This document shows positions 1,301 to 10,037 of a DNA stretch of 17,687 bases, one piece after another. The notes below the pieces were generated by a model. The model made no database searches and was not told the origin of the DNA. It saw nothing but the letters and a program-made list of their open reading frames with translations. The translations under genes and the position numbers were made by a program. Every line of letters starts with the position of its first letter. The first letter of the stretch is position 1. Source of the DNA: a virus; the UHGV virus genome UHGV-0277874; one strand, written 5' to 3'.

Positions 1301-1630
1301 CTATGCCACGACCTGTTCAAAATCTGCCGTTATGGTTACCCACAGCGCCCCCACGCTTGCCGACCATTTACGACAAACCACCCTGATCGGCCTCCAGTCA
1401 TAAGGTGGCGTCCACTGAAATGCGCGGACGCCACCGTGCCGTTCCAGAAAGGCTTTTAAAGATGGGTGTTCACATTTACGAACACGTATCGTCACGCTGT
1501 AAGTCGACAACTGGTTATTCAGTCCCGCCGCACGACGCTGTTCATAACCATCGCCCAGCTTCACTGTCACCACTTTCGGCTCTGATACCACATTCATATC
1601 CGGGCGCACTTTCCAGTGAAACGTCTCCAT
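1301..1630 (-). CDS. M: Minor tail protein M (lambda gpM-like)
   Basis: 109-aa ORF METFHWKVRPDMNVVSEPKVVTVKLGDGYEQRRAAGLNNQLSTYSVT...WTPPYDWRPIRVVCRKWSASVGALWVTITADFEQVVA, same length and pattern as lambda gpM. Its ATG shares one base with the H stop (TGATG). Confidence 0.95.
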   Translation of the reverse strand: METFHWKVRPDMNVVSEPKVVTVKLGDGYEQRRAAGLNNQLSTYSVTIRVRKCEHPSLKAFLERHGGVRAFQWTPPYDWRPIRVVCRKWSASVGALWVTITADFEQVVA

Positions 1631-4600
1631 TACCGATATGCTCCACTAAACCGACCACCATCACGGGCCTGCTGTTGCATAAAGTCCGCTGCCGCTTTTT
1701 TCCCAAGGTCATAAACCACCTTCAGGGCAGCCGGACCTATCTGCCCGTTCGTGCCATCGTTATTGATCTCGATGTTGTACTGCGGGGCAAACATCGCCAT
1801 ACCTGAACCACCAATATCCGCCACAACCCCCAGCTTACCGTCAGCACCACGACGCAGTGGCAGAATGGCTTCAGGTCCAGCTTCCCCCATCACACCCGCG
1901 CCTTTTGCAAAAGCAAAAAACGTCGGACGGTTAACCACCGTGCCACTGTAGCGACTCAAATCAGCCGACTGATAAACACCGCCATCAGCATTAGCTACAA
2001 AATCAAAAGGCAGCGCGGAAGCAATGCCTTTTACCGCTTTCATTAAAGCTATCTGAGCCATGATTCTGGACATATCTGACAGCACAGAAGAGGTGAAGGA
2101 TTTGAAATTGAGTTTGCCTGTAGTACAGAATGTCGCCAGCCAGTCACTCATGCTACTGAACGCAGACGTGAACAACTGTTCCACTGTCCCGGCTGTGTTA
2201 TCCGCATTCTCAGTGACATTCTGGAGTGCACGCAGGACTCCGTTTTTCCAGTCCCCCTGAGCAATTTCAAGCTGTTGCCAGTAACGGCGATTCTCATTCA
2301 GTTGTCGGTTCAGGCTCTCCGTCAGCGCCTGCTCGGCCTTTCTGTAGTCATCCGTGTTATATGTCCCTTTCTGCTCACTATCCCGCCTCAACTGCTCCAG
2401 CTGTTGCTGGTATTTCTGGCGAAGACTCAGTTGTACCTGATATCGCTGCCGCTGCTGATCACCCATACCCACCGTGGCGATATCCAGGTCATGTTGCTGA
2501 CGCTGAGCACGCTCTTCTTCAGCCAGTTGACTGGTCAGCTGAATTGTTTTTTTCTTCAGCTCGTTGAGTGCCGTCTGTTTCTGAAGCTCCTGCTGTTTTA
2601 CATCCAGCAGCGTCAGTGCCTGAATCAGTTCATCTTTACGGGCCAGCACACTCTTTTCATCTGCCGTCAGTTTTTTCCCGTCCAGGTCGCTGATGCGCTG
2701 CTGCAGAGCCAGAAGCTGTTTATGCGCTTCTGTCATCTTTTCAGTGGCAATGCCTGCTGACTGTCTTGCAGCAGCAATCTGCCCTTCCACCTGTGCCTGT
2801 TGCTGACTGTACTGCAGCAATAACCGGGTGGCCTCATCATTACGGGTTTCGCGTGTTTTTTTCTTACCGGATGCCAGGGCTTTCTCGTAACGTTCATTTT
2901 CACGTTGTATCGCCGCATCCCTGACAGCCTGGTCGGCGTACTGCATGGCATTAATACGCGCAATTTCACGCTGATGTCGTGCTGCTTCCGTTTCATTCAT
3001 CCGGTTCAGTGCAGCATTTTCAGCATTACGTCGTTTCTGTTGCTCCTGATAATTCCGCTCTGCCTGCTCTTTTGCATCCTGCAAATCCTTCTGGCGTTTT
3101 TTCTCCTGAAGATCGTTCAGACGCTGCTGATCGTATTCAACCTGAGAAGATGATGCCGTCCAGGGGAGTCTTTTCGCCCGCGACACTTTCTCCTGTAAAG
3201 CGGCAATCTGTTCATCCAGCGAGTCTTCACGACCAATATTCATGGCCGCATCCCAGAAACGACTCCACAAATCAGACAGATACTTCAGCGTACTGCCAAG
3301 CGCATTGAGGTTATTATCAATATCCGCAGTACGCCGACCGGTTTCCTCTGCCAGTGCAGACATGGCTATCCGTGCAGCATCACTGGACCGTCCCTGATCC
3401 CCAAGGACACGTATCTGCTCAAGCTGAGTGGCAGTAAGAAAATGCAGCTCATTGTCCAGAGCCTTCGCGGCATTTACAGGATCATCCTTCAGCCGCTTAA
3501 ACTGATTTATGGTATCGCTGACCGACTGGCCAACCGATCGCTCCATCTGTGCGGCAGCTCTCGCCACCATACCGATATCGTTTCCACGAAATGCACCACT
3601 CCCCACCACCTGAGCCAGCGCACCGGCTGCAGCATGTTGCGTGATACCATTCCCGGAAATAGCACGACTAAGCGTCCACAGCTGCCCGGCAGTGACTCCG
3701 GCATAATGCCCCGTCAGCGACAACTGGCGGTTAAATTCTTCCCCCTCCTTCTGACCGTCATACCAGGCTTTACCCAGACCATAGACGGCCGCGGCAATAC
3801 CGCCAATAACCCCACCTGGCATCATGCCTTTCGGTGACATCAGTGTGTCTATCCATCCGGCACGGTTAGCCAGCGTTATCCCGGATCCCCTCAGCGCACC
3901 TAAATTGCCGCGAGCCAGTTCACCTATCAGAACGCCTATCTCCTGGCGGGCCGCTGCACTTTTCAGACCCAGCGAATGCGTGGCTTTTCCTGCCTGCTCC
4001 ATTTTGCGGATATACACTTCTGCAGCACTGCTTACCCCCAGCTGGGCAGCCTTAGCACGAAGCAACTCAGAAGAAGAAAGATTCTGGCGGGTTGCCTGCT
4101 CTTTAAGCTGACGGATAAACGCCACTTTCTGTCGGGTAGCCTCTTCCTCAGCCTGTGTAAGAACACGGGTTTTCGCCGTAACCTCAGAAATCAGCGCCAG
4201 ATAATCCTGCTGACCAATCCCGCCACTGTTTCTGGCCTGTCGGATCTGCTGCTGAATACGCTGTAATTCCTGCAGACCCGCACTGGCCTGTTTCACACTG
4301 TCAATCTGACGATAAAACGCAGCAGCCGCTTTATCCTGAGCCTCCGCCAGAGCCATGGCCTGCGCCTGTTCCTCGCGCATTTTCTGGCTCAGCGCCTCCA
4401 TGCGCTGGCGGGTTTTCTCCACCTCGCGGGCCATGCGTTCATGAGCCTGTGCGTTCTTCTCCACCGTCTGCGCATGGACGGATGCGGCTGTTGCAGCCGA
4501 AGACGCCGCCTGCGTTGTCTGCCGGGCGGCCTGAGTCTGACGCTCCATAAAACGCTGCATACGGGCAGAAGACCGTTCTGCATCGCTGGCTGCACCATTC

Positions 4601-4686
4601 AGAAGGTTTTTGATACGGGGGATTTCATTTTTAAACTCTGCCGCATCAATCCCCAAATCAATGACCAGGTTGGCTATCTGGTCCAT
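1630..4686 (-). CDS. H: Tail tape measure protein (lambda gpH-like), about 1018 aa from the ATG start
   Basis: Track ORF 1630..4716 starts at a TTG. The in-frame ATG at 4686 is preceded by GGAGG (8-nt spacer) and gives MDQIANLVIDLGIDAAEFKNE..., aligning with the lambda H N-terminus MAEPVGDLVVDLSLDAARF. C-terminus ...NNDGTNGQIGPAALKVVYDLGKKAAADFMQQQARDGGRFSGAYR matches the lambda H C-terminus. Long Q/A/E/R-rich coiled-coil interior; located between G-T and M. Confidence 0.9.
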   Translation of the reverse strand: MDQIANLVIDLGIDAAEFKNEIPRIKNLLNGAASDAERSSARMQRFMERQTQAARQTTQAASSAATAASVHAQTVEKNAQAHERMAREVEKTRQRMEALSQKMREEQAQAMALAEAQDKAAAAFYRQIDSVKQASAGLQELQRIQQQIRQARNSGGIGQQDYLALISEVTAKTRVLTQAEEEATRQKVAFIRQLKEQATRQNLSSSELLRAKAAQLGVSSAAEVYIRKMEQAGKATHSLGLKSAAARQEIGVLIGELARGNLGALRGSGITLANRAGWIDTLMSPKGMMPGGVIGGIAAAVYGLGKAWYDGQKEGEEFNRQLSLTGHYAGVTAGQLWTLSRAISGNGITQHAAAGALAQVVGSGAFRGNDIGMVARAAAQMERSVGQSVSDTINQFKRLKDDPVNAAKALDNELHFLTATQLEQIRVLGDQGRSSDAARIAMSALAEETGRRTADIDNNLNALGSTLKYLSDLWSRFWDAAMNIGREDSLDEQIAALQEKVSRAKRLPWTASSSQVEYDQQRLNDLQEKKRQKDLQDAKEQAERNYQEQQKRRNAENAALNRMNETEAARHQREIARINAMQYADQAVRDAAIQRENERYEKALASGKKKTRETRNDEATRLLLQYSQQQAQVEGQIAAARQSAGIATEKMTEAHKQLLALQQRISDLDGKKLTADEKSVLARKDELIQALTLLDVKQQELQKQTALNELKKKTIQLTSQLAEEERAQRQQHDLDIATVGMGDQQRQRYQVQLSLRQKYQQQLEQLRRDSEQKGTYNTDDYRKAEQALTESLNRQLNENRRYWQQLEIAQGDWKNGVLRALQNVTENADNTAGTVEQLFTSAFSSMSDWLATFCTTGKLNFKSFTSSVLSDMSRIMAQIALMKAVKGIASALPFDFVANADGGVYQSADLSRYSGTVVNRPTFFAFAKGAGVMGEAGPEAILPLRRGADGKLGVVADIGGSGMAMFAPQYNIEINNDGTNGQIGPAALKVVYDLGKKAAADFMQQQARDGGRFSGAYR

Positions 4687-5008
4687 AACGCACACCTCCG
4701 GAAATACCTTCCCCAAGATGCATCAGTTCTTCGTCCGTTCGCTCCGGTATCCCGTTCTCTTCCGGTAAAAGGCTGAAATCAGCCACCGCAGCATCACTGC
4801 TGCCGGACACCATTCTCACGATCAATGCCTTCAGCGAGGCAAACTGCGCATCCATCCACACATCACTGAAGCTCTGCATCCGGAAATAATCGCCCCACTC
4901 ACCAAGCTCAGTGGCCGACATTTCCGACAGCATCCGCCGCCAGTCTGCCCGCCGGAACTCCCGGGCAAGCCGCATGACAAACTGCATTTCCCGCGTCAGG
5001 ACTTTTCC
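4658..5008 (-). CDS. T: T segment of tail assembly chaperone G-T, reached only by a -1 ribosomal frameshift from G (not independently initiated)
   Basis: ORF 4658..4987 (…LAREFRRADWRRMLSEMSATELGEWGDYFRMQ…) resembles lambda gpT. It lies in the -1 frame relative to G, and that frame is open from 5020 through the G stop. Candidate slip site GGAAAAG at 5008-5002 (minus strand), one codon before the G stop. Confidence 0.7.
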   Translation of the reverse strand, partial: GKVLTREMQFVMRLAREFRRADWRRMLSEMSATELGEWGDYFRMQSFSDVWMDAQFASLKALIVRMVSGSSDAAVADFSLLPEENGIPERTDEELMHLGEGISGGVRYGPDSQPGH

Positions 5009-5382
5009 GGCGTCAGCGCCTCATGCTCATCATCCCCGGCATTATCAATGGCCCCCATACCGCTCAGCGACAGAACCATCTCCGCCCCCGCACCCAGGGC
5101 ATCATACGACCATGTTGTAATAACGGATGCGCAAAGCGTCTCTACATCCTTAGACTGATCCGCATTCCACAGTGAGCGGGAAACCAGCCAGGCATTGATA
5201 TCCATCCCCATCCGCAGAAAAGCAATCTGTCGTTCAGCCTCCGGCAGTTCTCCCTCACCGGCATCAAACTTTGCCGTTCGCTGCTGAACAAACGCCAGAT
5301 ATTCAATTCTCTGCAGCCCGGACAGCTCACTGAGCACCACGGACTGTTTTTCATAATTAAACGTGCCCTGTTTCAGAAACAT
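4996..5382 (-). CDS. G: Tail assembly chaperone G (lambda gpG-like)
   Basis: Track ORF 4996..5424. Internal start MFLKQGTFNYEKQSVVLSELSGLQRIEYLA aligns with lambda G MFLK...TLSELSALQRIEHLA; GGAG lies 6 nt upstream of this ATG (the ATG at 5385 is an alternative). Position between V and H, with the T frame overlapping its 3' end. Confidence 0.8.
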   Translation of the reverse strand: MFLKQGTFNYEKQSVVLSELSGLQRIEYLAFVQQRTAKFDAGEGELPEAERQIAFLRMGMDINAWLVSRSLWNADQSKDVETLCASVITTWSYDALGAGAEMVLSLSGMGAIDNAGDDEHEALTPEKS

Positions 5383-5442
5383 CATGTTCTCCACCTGCAA
5401 AAAAGCCCCGGATAACCGGGGCAAATGATGAGTATCGTCCTG

Positions 5443-6186
5443 TTAACCTGCGGCGCTGACAGTCACCGCAGCCACAGCCACAAAATTCCCGTCAGCGGTC
5501 ATGCCCACAATGCTGACACTGCCCTGCTTCACGCCTTTCACCGTGGCTACAAGCCCGTTCAGGGTCACCGTGGCAGTCTGTGGATCTGACGAATGCACAC
5601 TGATCGCTTTGTCACTGGCTCCGTCAGGTTTTACTGTAAAGGTCAGCGTGGTGGTTGCTCCCACTTTTACACTGGCAGATGCCGGTGCCACCGTCAGCCC
5701 GGTAACGCTCACTGTTTCAGTGCCTTCCTCTGCCAGATACGGACGCCCCACACCGCTGATTTTCACAGTGCGGGTCATCACGTCTTTTGAGGCAATGGTT
5801 TTACCCAGTGAACTCAGCCAGCCACGGAAAACATCAACAGTACCGTTGGGATATTTGATACGAAACGCGCAGACTTCACCGGAGTCGAACAACTGAACCA
5901 GTTTTTTCTGCCCGCTGTCACCCGGACGCCAGGCCAGCGTCGCCGAAGTATCACCGACTGATTTCTGCCCCTGGGTTGTCGTTTTCCAGTCTGCATCTTC
6001 ATCATCGAGATAAGTGTCATCTTCTGCATCAGCGGTCATTTCGCCAGGTTGCAGATCCTTCACCATCGCAAGACGCAGCCAGTCAGTGTCCGACAAAGGA
6101 TTCGCAAACGCATCGCCGTTGCCGGTATACATCCAGAACGTCGTCCCCGCACCTTTCGTCTTTGCCAGTGGATTTGGTGTGGTCAT
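5443..6186 (-). CDS. V: Major tail tube protein V (lambda gpV-like) with C-terminal Ig-like (Big_2) domain
   Basis: Start at ATG 6186 preceded by AAGGAGGTGGTA. MTTPNPLAKTKGAGTTFWMYTGNGDAFANPLSDTDWLRLAMVKDLQPGEMTA...YLDDEDADW...FRIKYPNGTVDVFRGW... closely matches lambda gpV. C-terminal segment ...VTGLTVAPASASVKVGATTTLTFTVKPDGASDK... is Ig-like as in lambda V. 247 aa versus 246 in lambda. Confidence 0.9.
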   Translation of the reverse strand: MTTPNPLAKTKGAGTTFWMYTGNGDAFANPLSDTDWLRLAMVKDLQPGEMTADAEDDTYLDDEDADWKTTTQGQKSVGDTSATLAWRPGDSGQKKLVQLFDSGEVCAFRIKYPNGTVDVFRGWLSSLGKTIASKDVMTRTVKISGVGRPYLAEEGTETVSVTGLTVAPASASVKVGATTTLTFTVKPDGASDKAISVHSSDPQTATVTLNGLVATVKGVKQGSVSIVGMTADGNFVAVAAVTVSAAG

Positions 6187-6598: not shown

Positions 6599-6738
6599 CG
6601 GGTCAGCCATAATCTCAGTTGTTGTTTCAGTGCATACCCCAGCTGTTTCGGCATTTCCGCAGCAATGATGCGGTCGCGGGCATCTTCAAATGCCTGTGTC
6701 AGCGGTCCGGACAGCGGGATTTTCACTACCGACGGGCT
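6595..6738 (-). pseudogene. Z: 3'-terminal remnant of a tail completion gene Z homologue (about 45 codons, no start, 5' part missing)
   Basis: Minus-strand frame translates ...SVVKIPLSGPLTQAFEDARDRIIAAEMPKQLGYALKQQLRLWLTR*, matching the lambda gpZ C-terminus (...VVKIPMAVPLTTAFKQNIERIRRERLPKELGYALQHQLRMVIKR). That frame is closed by an in-frame TAA at 6741-6739, and the upstream DNA is the capsid-fusion ORF in another frame. Confidence 0.7.
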
Positions 6739-8297
6739 TTATCCAGCGATGCCACGTCCATTGCAGCGCTCTCCAGTACGTTTGCATGTTTCGCTTTATC
6801 GAACAGACTTACATTATCTGTGGAGATTTTCGGGTTAGACGTCAGAATGGCATAAACCAGATCGGCAATAGTGGATTTCGCCGCACGGCCCAGTTTCATC
6901 GGGACATCGGTCAGCATATTCAGATCATCATTGATAATGGCCTGACGGGTGATACTGAACAGCTCGCCATAGGTCGCCAGTGCAATAGTGGCCTGTTTAT
7001 CTCCGGTGGTGACGTATTTATATTCCGCCCCTTCACGCACCTGACGCAGAGCACTGAAGCCCCCCATACCCACACGATGGGCAATTTTAAAATCAGACAA
7101 CTGACCTTTCCGCGTCCACTGTTCATAGGTTTCAGGGGCATCTTCCCAGCCCTGCAGAATGGCTTTGTTTGCAACATCCAGCAGAATATTACCGAAGTCA
7201 GACGTACTGTGTGTGAACGCCGCACCGACCATCTGCATCGGGTTATAACTGGAAACCCCAATACCCCGTTCAGTCAGTGACATACGGGCATATTCACGCA
7301 GGGTCATCCCGTTGTAGACATTATCACGTTCGGTTTTTTCAAATCCGGCACGCGCCATCAGCGCCTGGCGGATCCCGTCCCCCACAAAATTACCGTTACC
7401 GGCATAAATATGAGCCGGGGTATTTTTATTGGATGGCGTGGACTCGCGCCCCATCTCGTTCAACAGCTTTTCGCGGGCCTGCTCCAGCGAACATTCAGGA
7501 TCGGCAAGACACTGAGCCTGCAGCGTCTGATAACGCCCGCCAAACATGGCAAACAGATCATTAATACCGTTTACACGCGCTTTTTGCTCTGCCAGTACCT
7601 GCGCACGGATACTGTTTTCATCCACCACGGGTGCTGCTGCCTGCACTGGCGTCCGGGAGGCTGCAGGTTCATCATCCTGTACGCGTGGAGCACTGTTGCG
7701 TGGCGGAGTAATCATGTTTCGAATGGATTCCGGCATCTTTTTAAATTCCTCTGTACGTTTTGACTGAATACATGCCATTGCCTTAACGGCTGGCGTCACC
7801 TGATCAGCAAATCCATGTGCCAGACATTCGGCACCGGACATCCAGGTCTCATCCGCCAGCATGGCAGCAATTTCATCGGTGGTTTTCCCGGTTTTCTGTG
7901 CATAAGCGGGTAACAGAACCGCCTCAACCTTATCGAGCAGGTCGGCATAGGTGCGCATGTCCTCCGCATCACCGCCCGTAAAGCCAAATGGTTTATGAAT
8001 CATCATGAAGGTGTTTTCCGGCATAATGACCGGGTTTCCCACCATCGCAATGACCGACGCCATTGACGCCGCCACACCGTCGACATAAACGGTAATGGAT
8101 GCACCATGTGTTTTCAGCGCATTAAAAATGGCGATGCCTTCAAAGACATCGCCACCCGGTGAATTGATATGGAGATTAATGTGGGTGATATCGCCCAGTG
8201 CATTCAGATCACTGATAAACTGCTTCGCTGTAACACCCCAGAAACCAATCTCGTCATAAATATAAATATCCGCGTCACTCTGGTGACCAGCCTGCAT
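6726..8297 (-). CDS. ClpP-family prohead protease fused to scaffold-like and major-capsid-like sequence (Gifsy-2-type multi-part head gene); probably 3'-truncated
   Basis: Track ORF 6726..8558 begins at a TTG inside the portal gene. The first ATG after the portal stop (8297) gives MQAGHQSDADIYIYDEIGFWGVTAKQFISDL...INSPGGDVFEGIAIFNALK...MASVIAMVG..., a ClpP/S14-like protease domain. This is followed by a helical linker and a segment (…TYGELFSITRQAIINDDLNMLTDVPMKLGRAAKSTIADL…) that I judge to be HK97-fold capsid-like. The ORF stops (TAG 6728-6726) exactly at the junction with the Z remnant. Confidence 0.65.
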   Translation of the reverse strand: MQAGHQSDADIYIYDEIGFWGVTAKQFISDLNALGDITHINLHINSPGGDVFEGIAIFNALKTHGASITVYVDGVAASMASVIAMVGNPVIMPENTFMMIHKPFGFTGGDAEDMRTYADLLDKVEAVLLPAYAQKTGKTTDEIAAMLADETWMSGAECLAHGFADQVTPAVKAMACIQSKRTEEFKKMPESIRNMITPPRNSAPRVQDDEPAASRTPVQAAAPVVDENSIRAQVLAEQKARVNGINDLFAMFGGRYQTLQAQCLADPECSLEQAREKLLNEMGRESTPSNKNTPAHIYAGNGNFVGDGIRQALMARAGFEKTERDNVYNGMTLREYARMSLTERGIGVSSYNPMQMVGAAFTHSTSDFGNILLDVANKAILQGWEDAPETYEQWTRKGQLSDFKIAHRVGMGGFSALRQVREGAEYKYVTTGDKQATIALATYGELFSITRQAIINDDLNMLTDVPMKLGRAAKSTIADLVYAILTSNPKISTDNVSLFDKAKHANVLESAAMDVASLDKARR

Positions 8298-8310
8298 CCT
8301 GAACCAGGAA

Positions 8311-9819
8311 TTATTCTTCGGACTGGTCGTCGGTGTGCTGCGGCTCCTGTCGTTTCGTTGCGGCACTGCTGCCTCCTTTATCACTGGCCGGATCGGTATC
8401 AAATACCAGATCCAGCTTGCGGTTTTCATCAATTTCGGCCTTGCGCCGACGTTTGACATCATCCGGATTACGACCACCAGCACGTACCCAGTCTGATTCT
8501 GTCGCCGCTCCACCACGAATCTGGATTTTCCAGGCCTCAGCCTCCTTAACAGGGTCAATCCACGGCATCACTGGTCCGGAATACACCGCGGTATACAGTG
8601 AAGAACGGTCAAGATCACGGGGTAGCCTGATAACACCGGATGCCACAGCCTGTTTCAGCCAGGCACGATACATCGGGCGGGTGACGGCACCAATAAACCA
8701 GTCCTGCAGGATCAGGTAGCCATCAGTAGACTCAACCAGTTCCTGACGCTGGGCGCTGTAAGTGCCGTTATAGTTGCGTGCCGTACTGGAAAAACTCAGA
8801 CGACTGCCCGCCGCCACGGCACGCAACTGACCATTACGAAAAGTTTCAAGGTTAGGATTGGGACGATCCGACTTCACCATTCCGATTTCTTCGCCGGGTT
8901 TCAGATCGTCGTAAATAATGCCTGGCTGAATGGTAAGCTCGCGTTCCTTATCCTTGCTGCCATTACCATCCGGTTCATAGCTCTGCCCGTCGCCTTTCCG
9001 GATGTACATCCCCAGAGCAGCGGCGATCCTTGCTGCAGTCAGCTCAGAATCTTCATACTCTTTCAGGGCACTGAGGCGGATCAGCACACCGGACAACAAA
9101 GACGTCCCGCGCATCTGGTGCAGACGGCGAACAAATTTAAGATGCAGCATTCGCTCTGCATCCACTTCTTTGGTTTCCATCTGCCGTCCGGATACAGGAC
9201 GACTTTTATACACCAGATATTTTTCGGGACGCCCCCAGTCATCAACAAACACGCCCTGATTCAGCCTGTTGCTCTCATCACTGGTCATGGGAATAAAGTC
9301 TGGCTCGAGCGCCTCCAGCCAGAAATGAACACCGGCAGAAGGCGTCAGGCTGTTTATGCGCCCGGAAACCATCTGGGCAAACACCTCACCATCGCGCAGC
9401 CAGGTACGCAGCATCAGACGTTCCAGCATCGGACGGGTAAACTGCCCGGTGACTTCCGGGCTGACAGACCATTCACTCCATCGGGTGCGTATCTCCGCTG
9501 CCAGATCACGGGCAATGGCCCCATTGCGTAATACCGGATGTGGCTCGACAATAATCCCGTTTTTCCCCACCACCCGTTCTTCCAGCTTGTCAAATACACC
9601 AATAACCAGATCGTGGTTGTTATCAAGGTAACGGGCCTGCTCACGTAACGACACGGCCCCGTACTGGCTTAACTGGTCGGCAGTTCGGTTTTCCCGCCGG
9701 GCTTTGTGTGTCCGCGTCGTTTTTACGGCCTCATAAGCCTGGATCACCGCACGGGAACGCAGCCTTGCCGCTTTCCATCCTGGTGAAAAAACGCCAATCA
9801 CATCATCAAGAATTGCCAT
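8311..9819 (-). CDS. Portal protein
   Basis: Track ORF 8311..9891 starts at a GTG. The in-frame ATG at 9819 (MAILDDVIGVFSPGWKAARLRSRAVIQAYEAVK...) overlaps the gpW stop as TGATG. About 502 aa; sits between gpW and the prohead protease as in lambda (W-B-C); acidic C-terminus ...QHTDDQSEE. Confidence 0.8.
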   Translation of the reverse strand: MAILDDVIGVFSPGWKAARLRSRAVIQAYEAVKTTRTHKARRENRTADQLSQYGAVSLREQARYLDNNHDLVIGVFDKLEERVVGKNGIIVEPHPVLRNGAIARDLAAEIRTRWSEWSVSPEVTGQFTRPMLERLMLRTWLRDGEVFAQMVSGRINSLTPSAGVHFWLEALEPDFIPMTSDESNRLNQGVFVDDWGRPEKYLVYKSRPVSGRQMETKEVDAERMLHLKFVRRLHQMRGTSLLSGVLIRLSALKEYEDSELTAARIAAALGMYIRKGDGQSYEPDGNGSKDKERELTIQPGIIYDDLKPGEEIGMVKSDRPNPNLETFRNGQLRAVAAGSRLSFSSTARNYNGTYSAQRQELVESTDGYLILQDWFIGAVTRPMYRAWLKQAVASGVIRLPRDLDRSSLYTAVYSGPVMPWIDPVKEAEAWKIQIRGGAATESDWVRAGGRNPDDVKRRRKAEIDENRKLDLVFDTDPASDKGGSSAATKRQEPQHTDDQSEE

Positions 9820-10037
9820 CAGAACCTCGCCAGCCGGTACCCGGGATGCCCCCGTCGTCGTGTAATCAGAGCCGCAAGGCGGCGCTCCCACTCCTGCCGT
9901 CCCTGCCGGATCTCAGATAAGTTTTCCATGGTCATCTGCTGACCATTAAAGGTGACGGATTTTCCGTCCAGCACCGCCATTTCAGCTTCCGTATAACGCT
10001 GAATCATGGCTTCGATATCATTCTGGTTCATAACCAT
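9819..10037 (-). CDS. W: Head-tail joining / DNA stabilisation protein (lambda gpW-like)
   Basis: About 70 aa; C-terminal ...RRLAALITRRRGHPGYRLARF resembles lambda gpW ...QTGMTQRRRGPAGFYV. Lies between terminase large subunit and portal, exactly as W in lambda. Start is ATG 10037 or ATG 10031 (the latter overlaps the terminase stop as ATGA). Confidence 0.7.
   Translation of the reverse strand: MVMNQNDIEAMIQRYTEAEMAVLDGKSVTFNGQQMTMENLSEIRQGRQEWERRLAALITRRRGHPGYRLARF

What the first reader, a model, noticed from the sequence alone, without database searches (positions are those of the whole stretch)
4985..5023. G-T programmed -1 frameshift with a non-canonical slip site GGAAAAG
The T ORF lies in the -1 frame relative to G, and the -1 frame is open only from 5020 onward, so the shift must occur in the last five G codons. 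The only plausible slippery sequence there is G GAA AAG (minus 5008-5002), one codon before the G stop, rather than lambda's G GGA AAG. It would need P-site tRNA-Glu to re-pair with GGA, so frameshift efficiency (and the G:GT ratio that governs tail assembly) may differ from lambda.
Basis: partly seen in the sequence, partly recalled or inferred. Interest (0 to 1): 0.5.

Follow-up and report, generated by a model that had tools for sequence, protein, structure and literature searches.

The report
Lambda-type G–T tail-chaperone frameshift site
This is the usual programmed -1 frameshift that joins the two tail-assembly chaperone genes (G and T) of a lambda-like E. coli phage, and its "odd" slip sequence GGAAAAG turns out to be the commonest one in this gene family, so it is real but ordinary.

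Summary
On the minus strand, gene G (5385..4996, Pfam Phage_TAC_2) ends ...CCG GAA AAG TCC TGA. The T reading frame (Pfam Phage_tail_T) is the -1 frame and is open only after a TGA at 5023-5021. The only shift-prone sequence in the overlap is G_GAA_AAG (5008..5002).

The window is a mEp460/cdtI-type lambdoid phage or prophage. This G-T module occurs in 1,847 of 5,426 complete E. coli genomes. In this clade T is always annotated as a separate gene.

The heptamer sits at the position homologous to lambda's G_GGA_AAG. Among 74 non-identical G-T junctions from phages and about 70 bacterial species:
- 57 carry GGAAAAG, including N15, phi80, HK225 and Fels-1.
- 6 carry lambda's GGGAAAG.
- A_AAR is invariant.
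- Heptamer base 1 is G in 69 of 74, although it is a third codon position behind eight different amino acids.

The N15 GenBank record already labels GGAAAAG as the -1 slippery sequence. I found no conserved downstream RNA structure.

Most likely tRNA-Lys slips from AAG to AAA while tRNA-Glu re-pairs with GGA through a middle G·U pair, giving a 242-aa G-T fusion. The efficiency has not been measured. In vitro this heptamer is poorly slippery.

Verdict: a new member of a known kind, of low interest.

The parts
4996..5385 (-). Gene G (tail assembly chaperone), 129 aa from ATG 5385. RefSeq uses the second ATG at 5382. The stop is TGA 4998-4996.
   Evidence: Translation. Pfam PF06894 Phage_TAC_2, E=1.8e-39. 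Annotated as gpG in RefSeq genomes.
5002..5008 (-). Slip site G_GAA_AAG. The P-site codon is GAA (Glu) and the A-site codon is AAG (Lys). After the -1 shift the codons are GGA and AAA.
   Evidence: Read directly. Homologous to lambda G_GGA_AAG. Present in 57 of 74 unique junctions. Conservation peak. Identical heptamer annotated as the slippery sequence in N15.
5021..5023 (-). TGA in the -1 (T) frame. It marks the 5' limit of where the shift can occur.
   Evidence: the translation starts with '*'.
4658..5002 (-). -1-frame part of the predicted G-T fusion (VLTREMQ...PGH, 114 aa plus stop). The fusion would be 242 aa.
   Evidence: Pfam PF06223 Phage_tail_T, E=5.1e-15. Aligned with T of lambda, N15-type and Stx phages.
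4985..4987 (-). Internal ATG used as the T start in database annotation. It lies 8 nt after the G stop and has only a weak, mis-spaced SD-like GGGA.
   Evidence: Annotations. Anti-SD duplex -4.3 kcal/mol with zero spacer, against -13.4 for V, -10.8 for H and -10.2 for L. The ATG is not conserved in Fels-1, Citrobacter or most relatives.
5019..5022 (-). SD-like GAGG 10 nt upstream of the heptamer, a possible upstream stimulator. This is inferred only.
   Evidence: The same spacing occurs 19 times among the 74 junctions, and 27 of 74 have an SD-like 4-mer 6-14 nt upstream. It is absent from the N15, phi80 and lambda types, so it is not a family-wide feature.
5405..5422 (-). Terminator-like GC hairpin plus T-run between V and G.
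   Evidence: Annotated as a terminator in the mEp460, Ayreon and N15 records.
5443..6186 (-). Gene V (tail tube protein with a C-terminal Ig-like domain), upstream neighbour.
   Evidence: Pfam PF16461 1.2e-66 and Big_2 2.6e-12.
1630..4686 (-). Gene H (tape measure protein), downstream neighbour. Its start overlaps the end of T.
   Evidence: Pfam TMP_2 5.9e-49 and Tape_meas_lam_C 2.5e-23. Annotation.

Best explanation
A small fraction of ribosomes translating G slip back one base at G_GAA_AAG (5008..5002). They then continue in the T frame and produce a 242-aa G-T fusion (...ALTPEK|VLTREMQ...) alongside abundant G.

By analogy with lambda, the G part binds the tape measure protein and the T part recruits the tail tube protein.

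The driving event is the single E. coli tRNA-Lys (anticodon mnm5s2UUU) moving from AAG to the better-matched AAA. The P-site tRNA-Glu (anticodon mnm5s2UUC) can re-pair with GGA through G-C, a middle-position G·U wobble and A-U. The site therefore behaves as a near-cognate heptamer rather than a bare A_AAG tetramer.

What is shown and what is inferred:
- Shown: gene identities, frame geometry, homology of the site and its conservation.
- Inferred: that the shift occurs, the tandem-slip detail and the efficiency.
For: - G and T are gpG and gpT homologues lying between V and H.
- The overlap contains a single shift-prone motif.
- In 74 non-identical junctions A_AAR is invariant. The P-site codon is GAA in 60, GGA in 7, GUA in 3, GCA in 2 and AAA in 2.
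- Heptamer base 1 is G in 69 of 74. It is the third base of ten different codons encoding eight amino acids. The baseline for G at third positions upstream is 27%. This argues for nucleotide-level selection for P-site re-pairing.
- GGAAAAG is spread over the whole T-protein tree. GGGAAAG and AAAAAAG are confined to the lambda/Stx clade, apart from one Edwardsiella prophage.
- No start codon lies in the T frame upstream of the site in any relative, and the first Met is at variable positions.
- T-frame residues K1, E6 and F9, which straddle ATG 4987 (K1 and E6 lie upstream of it), are invariant across the family.
- The N15 record annotates GGAAAAG as the 'slippery sequence for -1 translational frameshift'.
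- A_AAG is the most shift-prone tetramer in E. coli (PMC4066793).
- Re-pairing of tRNA-Glu to GGA by G·U has been noted for actinophage chaperone sites (PMC10885494).
Against: - No protein data exist for this phage or any GGAAAAG-type relative that I could find.
- In a reconstituted E. coli system AUG GAA AAG gave mainly 0-frame product at all EF-G concentrations. The authors called it unfavourable for slippage (PMC6924986).
- A_AAG alone is about 0.15% without a stimulator.
- I found no conserved stimulator. Downstream folding z-scores are -0.77 and -0.22. RNAalifold on 23 diverse junctions gives about 0 kcal/mol. There is no Rfam hit.
- In this clade an ATG lies 8 nt after the G stop, so some free T could arise by reinitiation.
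- This particular copy carries a 1.5-kb head/neck deletion, so it may no longer be under selection.
Confidence: 0.82

Rival explanations
1. The shift happens at this site, but by single-tRNA slippage on the A_AAG tetramer only. Either tRNA-Lys slips in the A site without P-site re-pairing, or it slips in the P site while the next codon waits. The flanking G GA would be irrelevant. The protein product is identical.
For: - A_AAR is the only strictly invariant part.
- P-site codons GUA, GCA and A_GAA occur in relatives where -1 re-pairing is poor.
- In 13 of 74 junctions a stop codon directly follows AAG or AAA. This fits P-site slippage at a slow A site.
- Tetramer and hexamer sites such as IS1222 G_CGA_AAG are known (PMC5009743).
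Against: - Heptamer bases 1 and 2 are G in 93% and 97% of junctions despite varied amino acids. A pure tetramer would not need this.
- Tetramers need a strong stimulator in E. coli, and none is conserved here.
Confidence: 0.25
2. There is no frameshift. T is made as a free 109-aa protein from ATG 4987, by termination-reinitiation after the G stop 8 nt upstream. This is how the databases annotate it.
For: - All records of this clade and RefSeq annotate T from this ATG.
- The short distance from the G stop would allow translational coupling.
- Other genes in the operon, such as U, also lack a good SD.
Against: - The ATG is not conserved: it is Leu in Fels-1 and Citrobacter, and the first Met is at +10, +16 or +24 elsewhere.
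- The SD-like GGGA abuts the ATG, at -4.3 kcal/mol.
- Of the four differences between this window and Fels-1 in the six T-frame codons from the junction codon GTC through ATG 4987, two (ACG to ACC and GAA to GAG) are synonymous in the T frame.
- K1 and E6 upstream of the ATG are family-invariant.
- From my own knowledge of Levin 1993 and Xu 2013/2014: in lambda, T exists only as G-T and the G moiety is needed to dock on the tape measure protein.
Confidence: 0.07
3. The fusion arises by transcriptional slippage of RNA polymerase on the A run, not by ribosomal slippage.
For: The site contains a homopolymeric A4 run.
Against: - From established knowledge: productive transcriptional slippage needs runs of about 7 or more A/T.
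- The run is exactly 4 A's in 64 of 74 relatives. The conserved feature is frame-locked A_AAG plus G G, which is what a ribosomal mechanism predicts.
Confidence: 0.02

Closest known systems
Bacteriophage lambda G / G-T programmed -1 frameshift at G_GGA_AAG (Levin, Hendrix & Casjens 1993; Xu, Hendrix & Duda 2004, 2013, 2014; summarised in PMC5009743)
   Same: The proteins are homologous (35% identity over the fusion). The gene order V-G-T-H is the same, T is in the same -1 frame, and the slip site is at the aligned position with the same A-site codon AAG. Neither this window nor its GGAAAAG-type relatives show a conserved RNA structure downstream.
   Different: The P-site codon is GAA (Glu) instead of GGA (Gly). 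The -1 re-pairing therefore has a G·U at the middle position instead of at the wobble position. Only one codon follows the site before the G stop, against five in lambda. The efficiency is unmeasured.
Phage N15 genes 14/15, with GGAAAAG annotated as 'slippery sequence for -1 translational frameshift' in NC_001901
   Same: The heptamer is identical and at the homologous place in a homologous G-T pair. The same site is present in phi80, HK225, mEp213 and Fels-1.
   Different: It belongs to a different T clade (about 43% identity). N15 has GCG before the site and five codons after it. In the window's own clade the shift is not annotated in any record I saw.
A_AAG tetranucleotide / NNA_AAG hexanucleotide -1 sites (IS1222 G_CGA_AAG, B. 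subtilis cdd A_CGA_AAG; Licznar 2003, Sharma 2014)
   Same: The slip depends on E. coli's single tRNA-Lys moving from AAG to AAA, and the P-site codon is not of the XXY type.
   Different: Those sites depend on strong pseudoknot or SD stimulators. Here none is conserved, and bases 1-2 of the heptamer are conserved as if the P-site tRNA does re-pair.
Actinobacteriophage tail-chaperone sites G_GGG_GAA ('fivetwo') and the 'twofour' XXYYYY class catalogued by PRFect (PMC10885494)
   Same: These are also tail-chaperone frameshifts, and tRNA-Glu re-pairs from GAA to GGA through a G·U pair. GGAAAA fits the two-plus-four pattern.
   Different: There tRNA-Glu is the second (3') tRNA of the pair. The proteins and hosts are unrelated, and the motifs were inferred from annotation, not tested.
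E. coli dnaX A_AAA_AAG with an SD-like element 10 nt upstream
   Same: The A-site codon AAG is the same. In this window a GAGG lies exactly 10 nt upstream.
   Different: dnaX also needs a strong downstream hairpin and reaches 50-80%. The GAGG here is short and absent from many relatives.

Membership tests
Lambda-type tail assembly chaperone G/G-T frameshift module (Xu, Hendrix & Duda 2004) | Two overlapping ORFs lie between the major tail (tube) gene and the tape measure gene. | tested here: met
   The order is V 5443..6186, G 4996..5385, T frame 4658..5020, H 1630..4686, all on the minus strand.
Lambda-type tail assembly chaperone G/G-T frameshift module (Xu, Hendrix & Duda 2004) | Sequence homology to gpG and gpT. 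| tested here: met
   PF06894 at 1.8e-39 and PF06223 at 5.1e-15. tblastn matches lambda G-T at 8e-28.
Lambda-type tail assembly chaperone G/G-T frameshift module (Xu, Hendrix & Duda 2004) | The downstream ORF is in the -1 frame and lacks a conserved start or RBS of its own. | tested here: met
   The -1 frame is shown. No start codon lies upstream of the site in 74 of 74 junctions, and the first Met is variable. The SD at ATG 4987 is weak and mis-spaced. An ATG does exist in this clade, so independent initiation is not excluded.
Lambda-type tail assembly chaperone G/G-T frameshift module (Xu, Hendrix & Duda 2004) | A conserved slippery sequence lies in the overlap. | tested here: met
   G_GAA_AAG is at the position of lambda's G_GGA_AAG, and there is a conservation peak over the heptamer.
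Lambda-type tail assembly chaperone G/G-T frameshift module (Xu, Hendrix & Duda 2004) | A fusion protein is made at a low, fixed ratio to G and is required for tail assembly. | not testable with these tools
   This needs a western blot or mass spectrometry, plus genetics in mEp460 or Tritos.
Canonical X_XXY_YYZ tandem-slippage heptamer | The first three bases are identical (XXX), so that the P-site tRNA keeps its two non-wobble pairs in the -1 frame. | tested here: not met
   Bases 1-3 are GGA. The -1 P-site codon GGA pairs with the tRNA-Glu anticodon only if a middle-position G·U is allowed (inference from the known anticodon).
Canonical X_XXY_YYZ tandem-slippage heptamer | YYY_Z allows cognate A-site re-pairing (A_AAG in bacteria). 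| tested here: met
   Bases 4-7 are AAAG and invariant in the family. A_AAG is the top-ranked motif in E. coli.
Z_ZZN tetramer -1 sites needing a strong stimulator | A downstream pseudoknot or hairpin, or an upstream SD, is present at functional spacing. | tested here: inconclusive
   There is no significant or conserved downstream structure. GAGG lies 10 nt upstream in this clade and in some others (27 of 74 junctions) but not family-wide.

The most novel reading that the evidence does not exclude
G_GAA_AAG, not lambda's textbook G_GGA_AAG, is the ancestral and predominant shift site of lambda-type G-T modules. It would deliver a physiologically adequate G:G-T ratio in vivo through a middle-position G·U P-site re-pairing, or through an unrecognised stimulator such as the GAGG 10 nt upstream or the nascent peptide. 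This would hold even though the heptamer is rated 'unfavourable' in vitro.

The family then offers a natural series of P-site variants (GGA, GAA, GUA, GCA, AAA, and A_GAA) for working out P-site re-pairing rules.
Probability: 0.35. Interest if true: 0.4.

Novelty: new member of a known kind. Interest (0 to 1): 0.22.

Why it matters
There are three practical points.

- Annotation gap. This G-T module is in about a third of complete E. coli genomes (1,847 of 5,426) and in many phages. Every record I inspected for this clade annotates T as a stand-alone gene, so the real product (a 242-aa fusion) is missing from protein databases.
- Search rules. Frameshift finders that look only for X_XXY_YYZ will miss most lambda-type chaperone sites (57 of 74 here).
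- In vitro versus nature. The contrast between wide natural use of G_GAA_AAG and its poor slipperiness in a purified system is a small, testable question. It bears on how much P-site pairing, and how much frameshifting, tail assembly really needs.

None of this changes the known biology of tail assembly chaperones.

Tried and rejected
- Downstream stimulatory RNA structure. Single-sequence folds of 62 and 102 nt after the site are no better than shuffles (z -0.22 and -0.77). RNAalifold on 23 diverse GGAAAAG junctions gives 0 to -1.5 kcal/mol, no better than phase-preserving column shuffles. I rejected it as a conserved feature.
- Known RNA families. Rfam gave only chance-level hits (E of 0.46 or worse).
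- Upstream SD-like stimulator. GAGG lies at a 10-nt spacing in this clade and recurs elsewhere. It is absent from the N15, phi80 and lambda types, and it is confounded by a conserved Glu codon and by shared ancestry. I kept it only as a possibility.
- Other shift sites in the overlap. None of GCG CTG ACG CCG or TCC TGA offers -1 re-pairing.
- Finding distant relatives with a single-protein scan of viral contigs. It returned only 100%-identical copies. The alignment-based viral scan did the same. The one-genome-per-species scan gave the diversity I needed.
- Literature. I found no open-access paper discussing GGAAAAG as a phage tail slip site. Licznar 2003 (PMC212731) is not held. Xu 2004 and Ravin 2000 are not in the library, so what they say about N15 is known to me only through the GenBank feature.
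- phi80 and HK97 records. phi80 has GGAAAAG but no slippage annotation. My HK97 coordinates missed the G-T region, and I did not pursue it.

Full report
**What is at the coordinates.** All genes of interest are on the minus strand.
- Gene G runs from ATG 5385 to TGA 4998-4996 (129 aa). It ends ...GAG GCG CTG ACG CCG GAA AAG TCC TGA.
- The frame whose codons start one base 5' of the G codons (the -1 frame) has a TGA at 5023-5021. It is then open for 120 codons to the stop at 4660-4658.
- G is a lambda gpG homologue (Pfam PF06894, E=1.8e-39). The -1 frame encodes a gpT domain (PF06223, E=5.1e-15).
- Upstream lies the tail tube gene V (PF16461 plus Big_2). A terminator-like hairpin at 5422..5405 follows it. 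Downstream lie the tape measure gene H, then M and L.
- The heptamer G GAA AAG occupies 5008..5002, and one codon (TCC) separates it from the G stop.

The only slip is that seven, not five, G sense codons follow the -1-frame stop.

**Where the window comes from.**
- The G-T region is 100% identical to phages mEp460_4F5 and PhiR47_1, and 98-99.9% identical to Tritos, HannyBb, cdtI, mEp460 and Ayreon.
- The same module is present in 1,847 of 5,426 complete E. coli genomes, including Sakai prophage Sp3.
- In every record of this clade that I opened, T is annotated as a separate gene. It starts at ATG 4987 or, in Ayreon, at a later ATG. None annotates ribosomal slippage.

**Comparison with relatives.** I took the G-T junctions of 14 phage records and 79 loci from a one-genome-per-species scan. 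I then aligned them by the T frame.

| Phage or group | Sequence at the position of lambda's G GGA AAG |
|---|---|
| Stx2a phages | GCG GGA AAG |
| Stx1 / Stx2d phages | TCA AAA AAG |
| This window, mEp460, Ayreon, Fels-1 | CCG GAA AAG |
| N15-like, HK225, mEp213, Eeyore, Kp4865-4 | GCG GAA AAG |

phi80 also has GCG GAA AAG.

Counts over 74 non-identical junction sequences:

| Heptamer | Junctions | Where the rarer forms occur |
|---|---|---|
| GGAAAAG | 57 | |
| GGGAAAG | 6 | |
| AGAAAAG | 3 | Morganella |
| GGTAAAG | 3 | Pantoea |
| GGCAAAA | 2 | Kluyvera, Ewingella |
| AAAAAAG | 2 | |
| GGGAAAA | 1 | Providencia |

On a T-protein tree GGAAAAG is found in all major branches. The canonical forms are nested in the lambda/Stx clade, plus one Edwardsiella prophage. 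So the 'non-canonical' heptamer is the family norm, and lambda is the exception.

**Evidence that the heptamer is under selection as nucleotides**.
- Per-column identity is 100% for bases 4-6 (AAA), 97% for base 2, 96% for base 7, 93% for base 1 and 84% for base 3.
- The 30 columns upstream, in the G tail, are mostly below 0.8 bits.
- Base 1 is the third position of the preceding G codon. That codon is GCG, CCG, CTG, AAG, TTG, ACG, ATG, GTG, GCA or TCA, which covers eight amino acids.
- Even so, 69 of 74 junctions end that codon in G, against 27% G at third positions in the 19 codons upstream.
- In the two A_AAA_AAG cases base 1 is A.
- Base 1 is not translated in the T frame if the shift is at this site. 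Protein coding in either frame therefore does not explain its conservation, but re-pairing of the P-site tRNA does.
- All 160 near-identical IMG/VR copies have GGAAAAG, although nearby bases vary.

**Evidence that T depends on the shift.**
- In none of the 74 junctions is there an ATG, GTG or TTG in the T frame between its upstream stop and the slip site.
- The first Met of the T frame lies 6, 10, 16 or 24 residues after the junction Lys, depending on the clade.
- T-frame residues K1, E6 and F9 are invariant across the family. K1 and E6 lie upstream of this window's ATG 4987.
- In the six T-frame codons from the junction codon GTC through ATG 4987, this window and Fels-1 differ at four places. 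Two of them, ACG/ACC and GAA/GAG, are synonymous in the T frame.
- The ATG at 4987 has only GGGA abutting it. Its anti-SD duplex is -4.3 kcal/mol with zero spacer, against -13.4 for V, -10.8 for H and -10.2 for L.
- That ATG lies 8 nt after the G stop. Some reinitiation in this clade therefore cannot be excluded.

**Mechanism.** From established knowledge, E. coli and its relatives have a single tRNA-Lys (anticodon mnm5s2UUU) that pairs better with AAA than with AAG. This makes A_AAG the most shift-prone bacterial A-site motif (PMC4066793; PMC5009743). tRNA-Glu has the anticodon mnm5s2UUC. On the -1 codon GGA it can form G-C, G·U and A-U.

That is the same number of Watson-Crick and wobble pairs as tRNA-Gly on GGG in lambda, but the wobble sits in the middle position. 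This pairing argument is my inference. The same G·U logic is mentioned for actinophage chaperone sites in PMC10885494.

Conservation of bases 1-2 favours tandem slippage. The GUA, GCA and A_GAA variants, and the 13 junctions where a stop codon directly follows the Lys codon, show that the A_AAR slip is the essential part. P-site pairing can evidently be relaxed.

**Stimulators and efficiency.**
- I found no downstream structure. Fold z-scores are -0.22 and -0.77. There is no consensus structure in 23 diverse junctions. There is no Rfam family.
- A GAGG lies 10 nt upstream, the dnaX spacing, in this clade. SD-like 4-mers peak at that spacing in the family: 19 occurrences against about 2 per position elsewhere. 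Only 27 of 74 junctions have one, and the signal is confounded by a conserved Glu codon and by shared ancestry.
- The efficiency is unknown.
- In a purified E. coli system G GAA AAG gave mainly 0-frame product where G GGA AAG shifted readily (PMC6924986).
- A_AAG without a stimulator is about 0.15% in vivo.

**Is it known?** The N15 GenBank record carries a misc_feature 'slippery sequence for -1 translational frameshift' at 10027-10033. I read that sequence as GGAAAAG. The kind of site and this exact heptamer are therefore already on record for a homologous gene pair. PRFect's 'twofour' motif class also covers the pattern. I found no open-access paper that discusses GGAAAAG in tail chaperones. 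I also found no experimental test of it. For the mEp460/cdtI clade the shift is simply unannotated.

**Verdict.** The finding is real and correctly interpreted. It is a new, unannotated member of a well-known system and uses the family's commonest slip site. Interest is low.

**Side observation.** This copy lacks 1,536 bp present in Tritos and all other relatives. The deletion runs from the middle of the protease-capsid fusion gene to near the end of the Z-like neck gene, with the junction at 6731|6730. The junction is not seen in any complete E. coli genome. The element in the window is therefore probably defective.

Noticed in passing
window 6730|6731 (minus-strand gene order); ORF 6726..8558: The window has a clean 1,536-bp (512 x 3) deletion relative to phage Tritos, with 100% and 99.9% identity on the two flanks. 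It removes the C-terminal ~131 codons of the ClpP-protease/major-capsid fusion gene, a hypothetical gene, the head completion gene and most of the Z-like neck gene. The junction is absent from all 5,426 complete E. coli genomes and from all phage records. This copy is probably a defective prophage or an assembly/construct artefact.
   Followed up: partly
window 5405..5422 (-) plus the T-run to about 5397: A strong terminator-like hairpin (7 GC pairs plus TTTTTT) lies between V and G. It is annotated as a terminator in the mEp460, Ayreon and N15 records. It may lower transcription of G-T-H relative to V.
   Followed up: no
window 5019..5022 (-): An SD-like GAGG lies exactly 10 nt upstream of the slip site, which is the dnaX spacing. 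The same spacing recurs in several unrelated clades. Pantoea junctions (L147, L149, L166) combine the weakest P-site codon (G_GTA_AAG) with the strongest SD-like run (GGGGAGGA, 9-11 nt upstream).
   Followed up: partly
L109-L111 (Morganella), L114-L121, L128, L167 (Proteus/Providencia), L105, L107, L148: In Morganellaceae-type prophages, and in the Kluyvera (L105) and Ewingella (L107) loci, the G stop codon directly follows the slip codon (GAA AAG TAA/TAG, GCA AAA TAG, GGA AAA TAG). This looks like a 'shifty stop' arrangement. Morganella also has A instead of G at heptamer base 1.
   Followed up: no
L152-L164, L172, L173, L175, L176: Identical lambda G-T sequence turns up on short, roughly 1x-coverage contigs in assemblies of unrelated organisms (Neobacillus, Oceanobacillus, Kitasatospora, Pseudomonas, Shewanella, Leeuwenhoekiella, Enterococcus, Pseudoxanthomonas and others). 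This is almost certainly lambda control-DNA contamination of those assemblies.
   Followed up: no
window 4658..4987 and homologous CDS in public records: The annotated start of T is inconsistent between records: ATG 4987 in mEp460, Tritos and RefSeq, a later ATG in Ayreon, and truncated starts in Eeyore, mEp213 and phi80. No inspected record of this clade, nor phi80, annotates the slippage. This affects about a third of complete E. coli genomes.
   Followed up: partly
window 4999..5001 and homologues: The base after the heptamer is always a pyrimidine (T 55%, C 45%). The next codon is most often CCC or TCC. This could reflect the Val/Ala requirement in the T frame or a 3'-context effect on slippage.
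   Followed up: no
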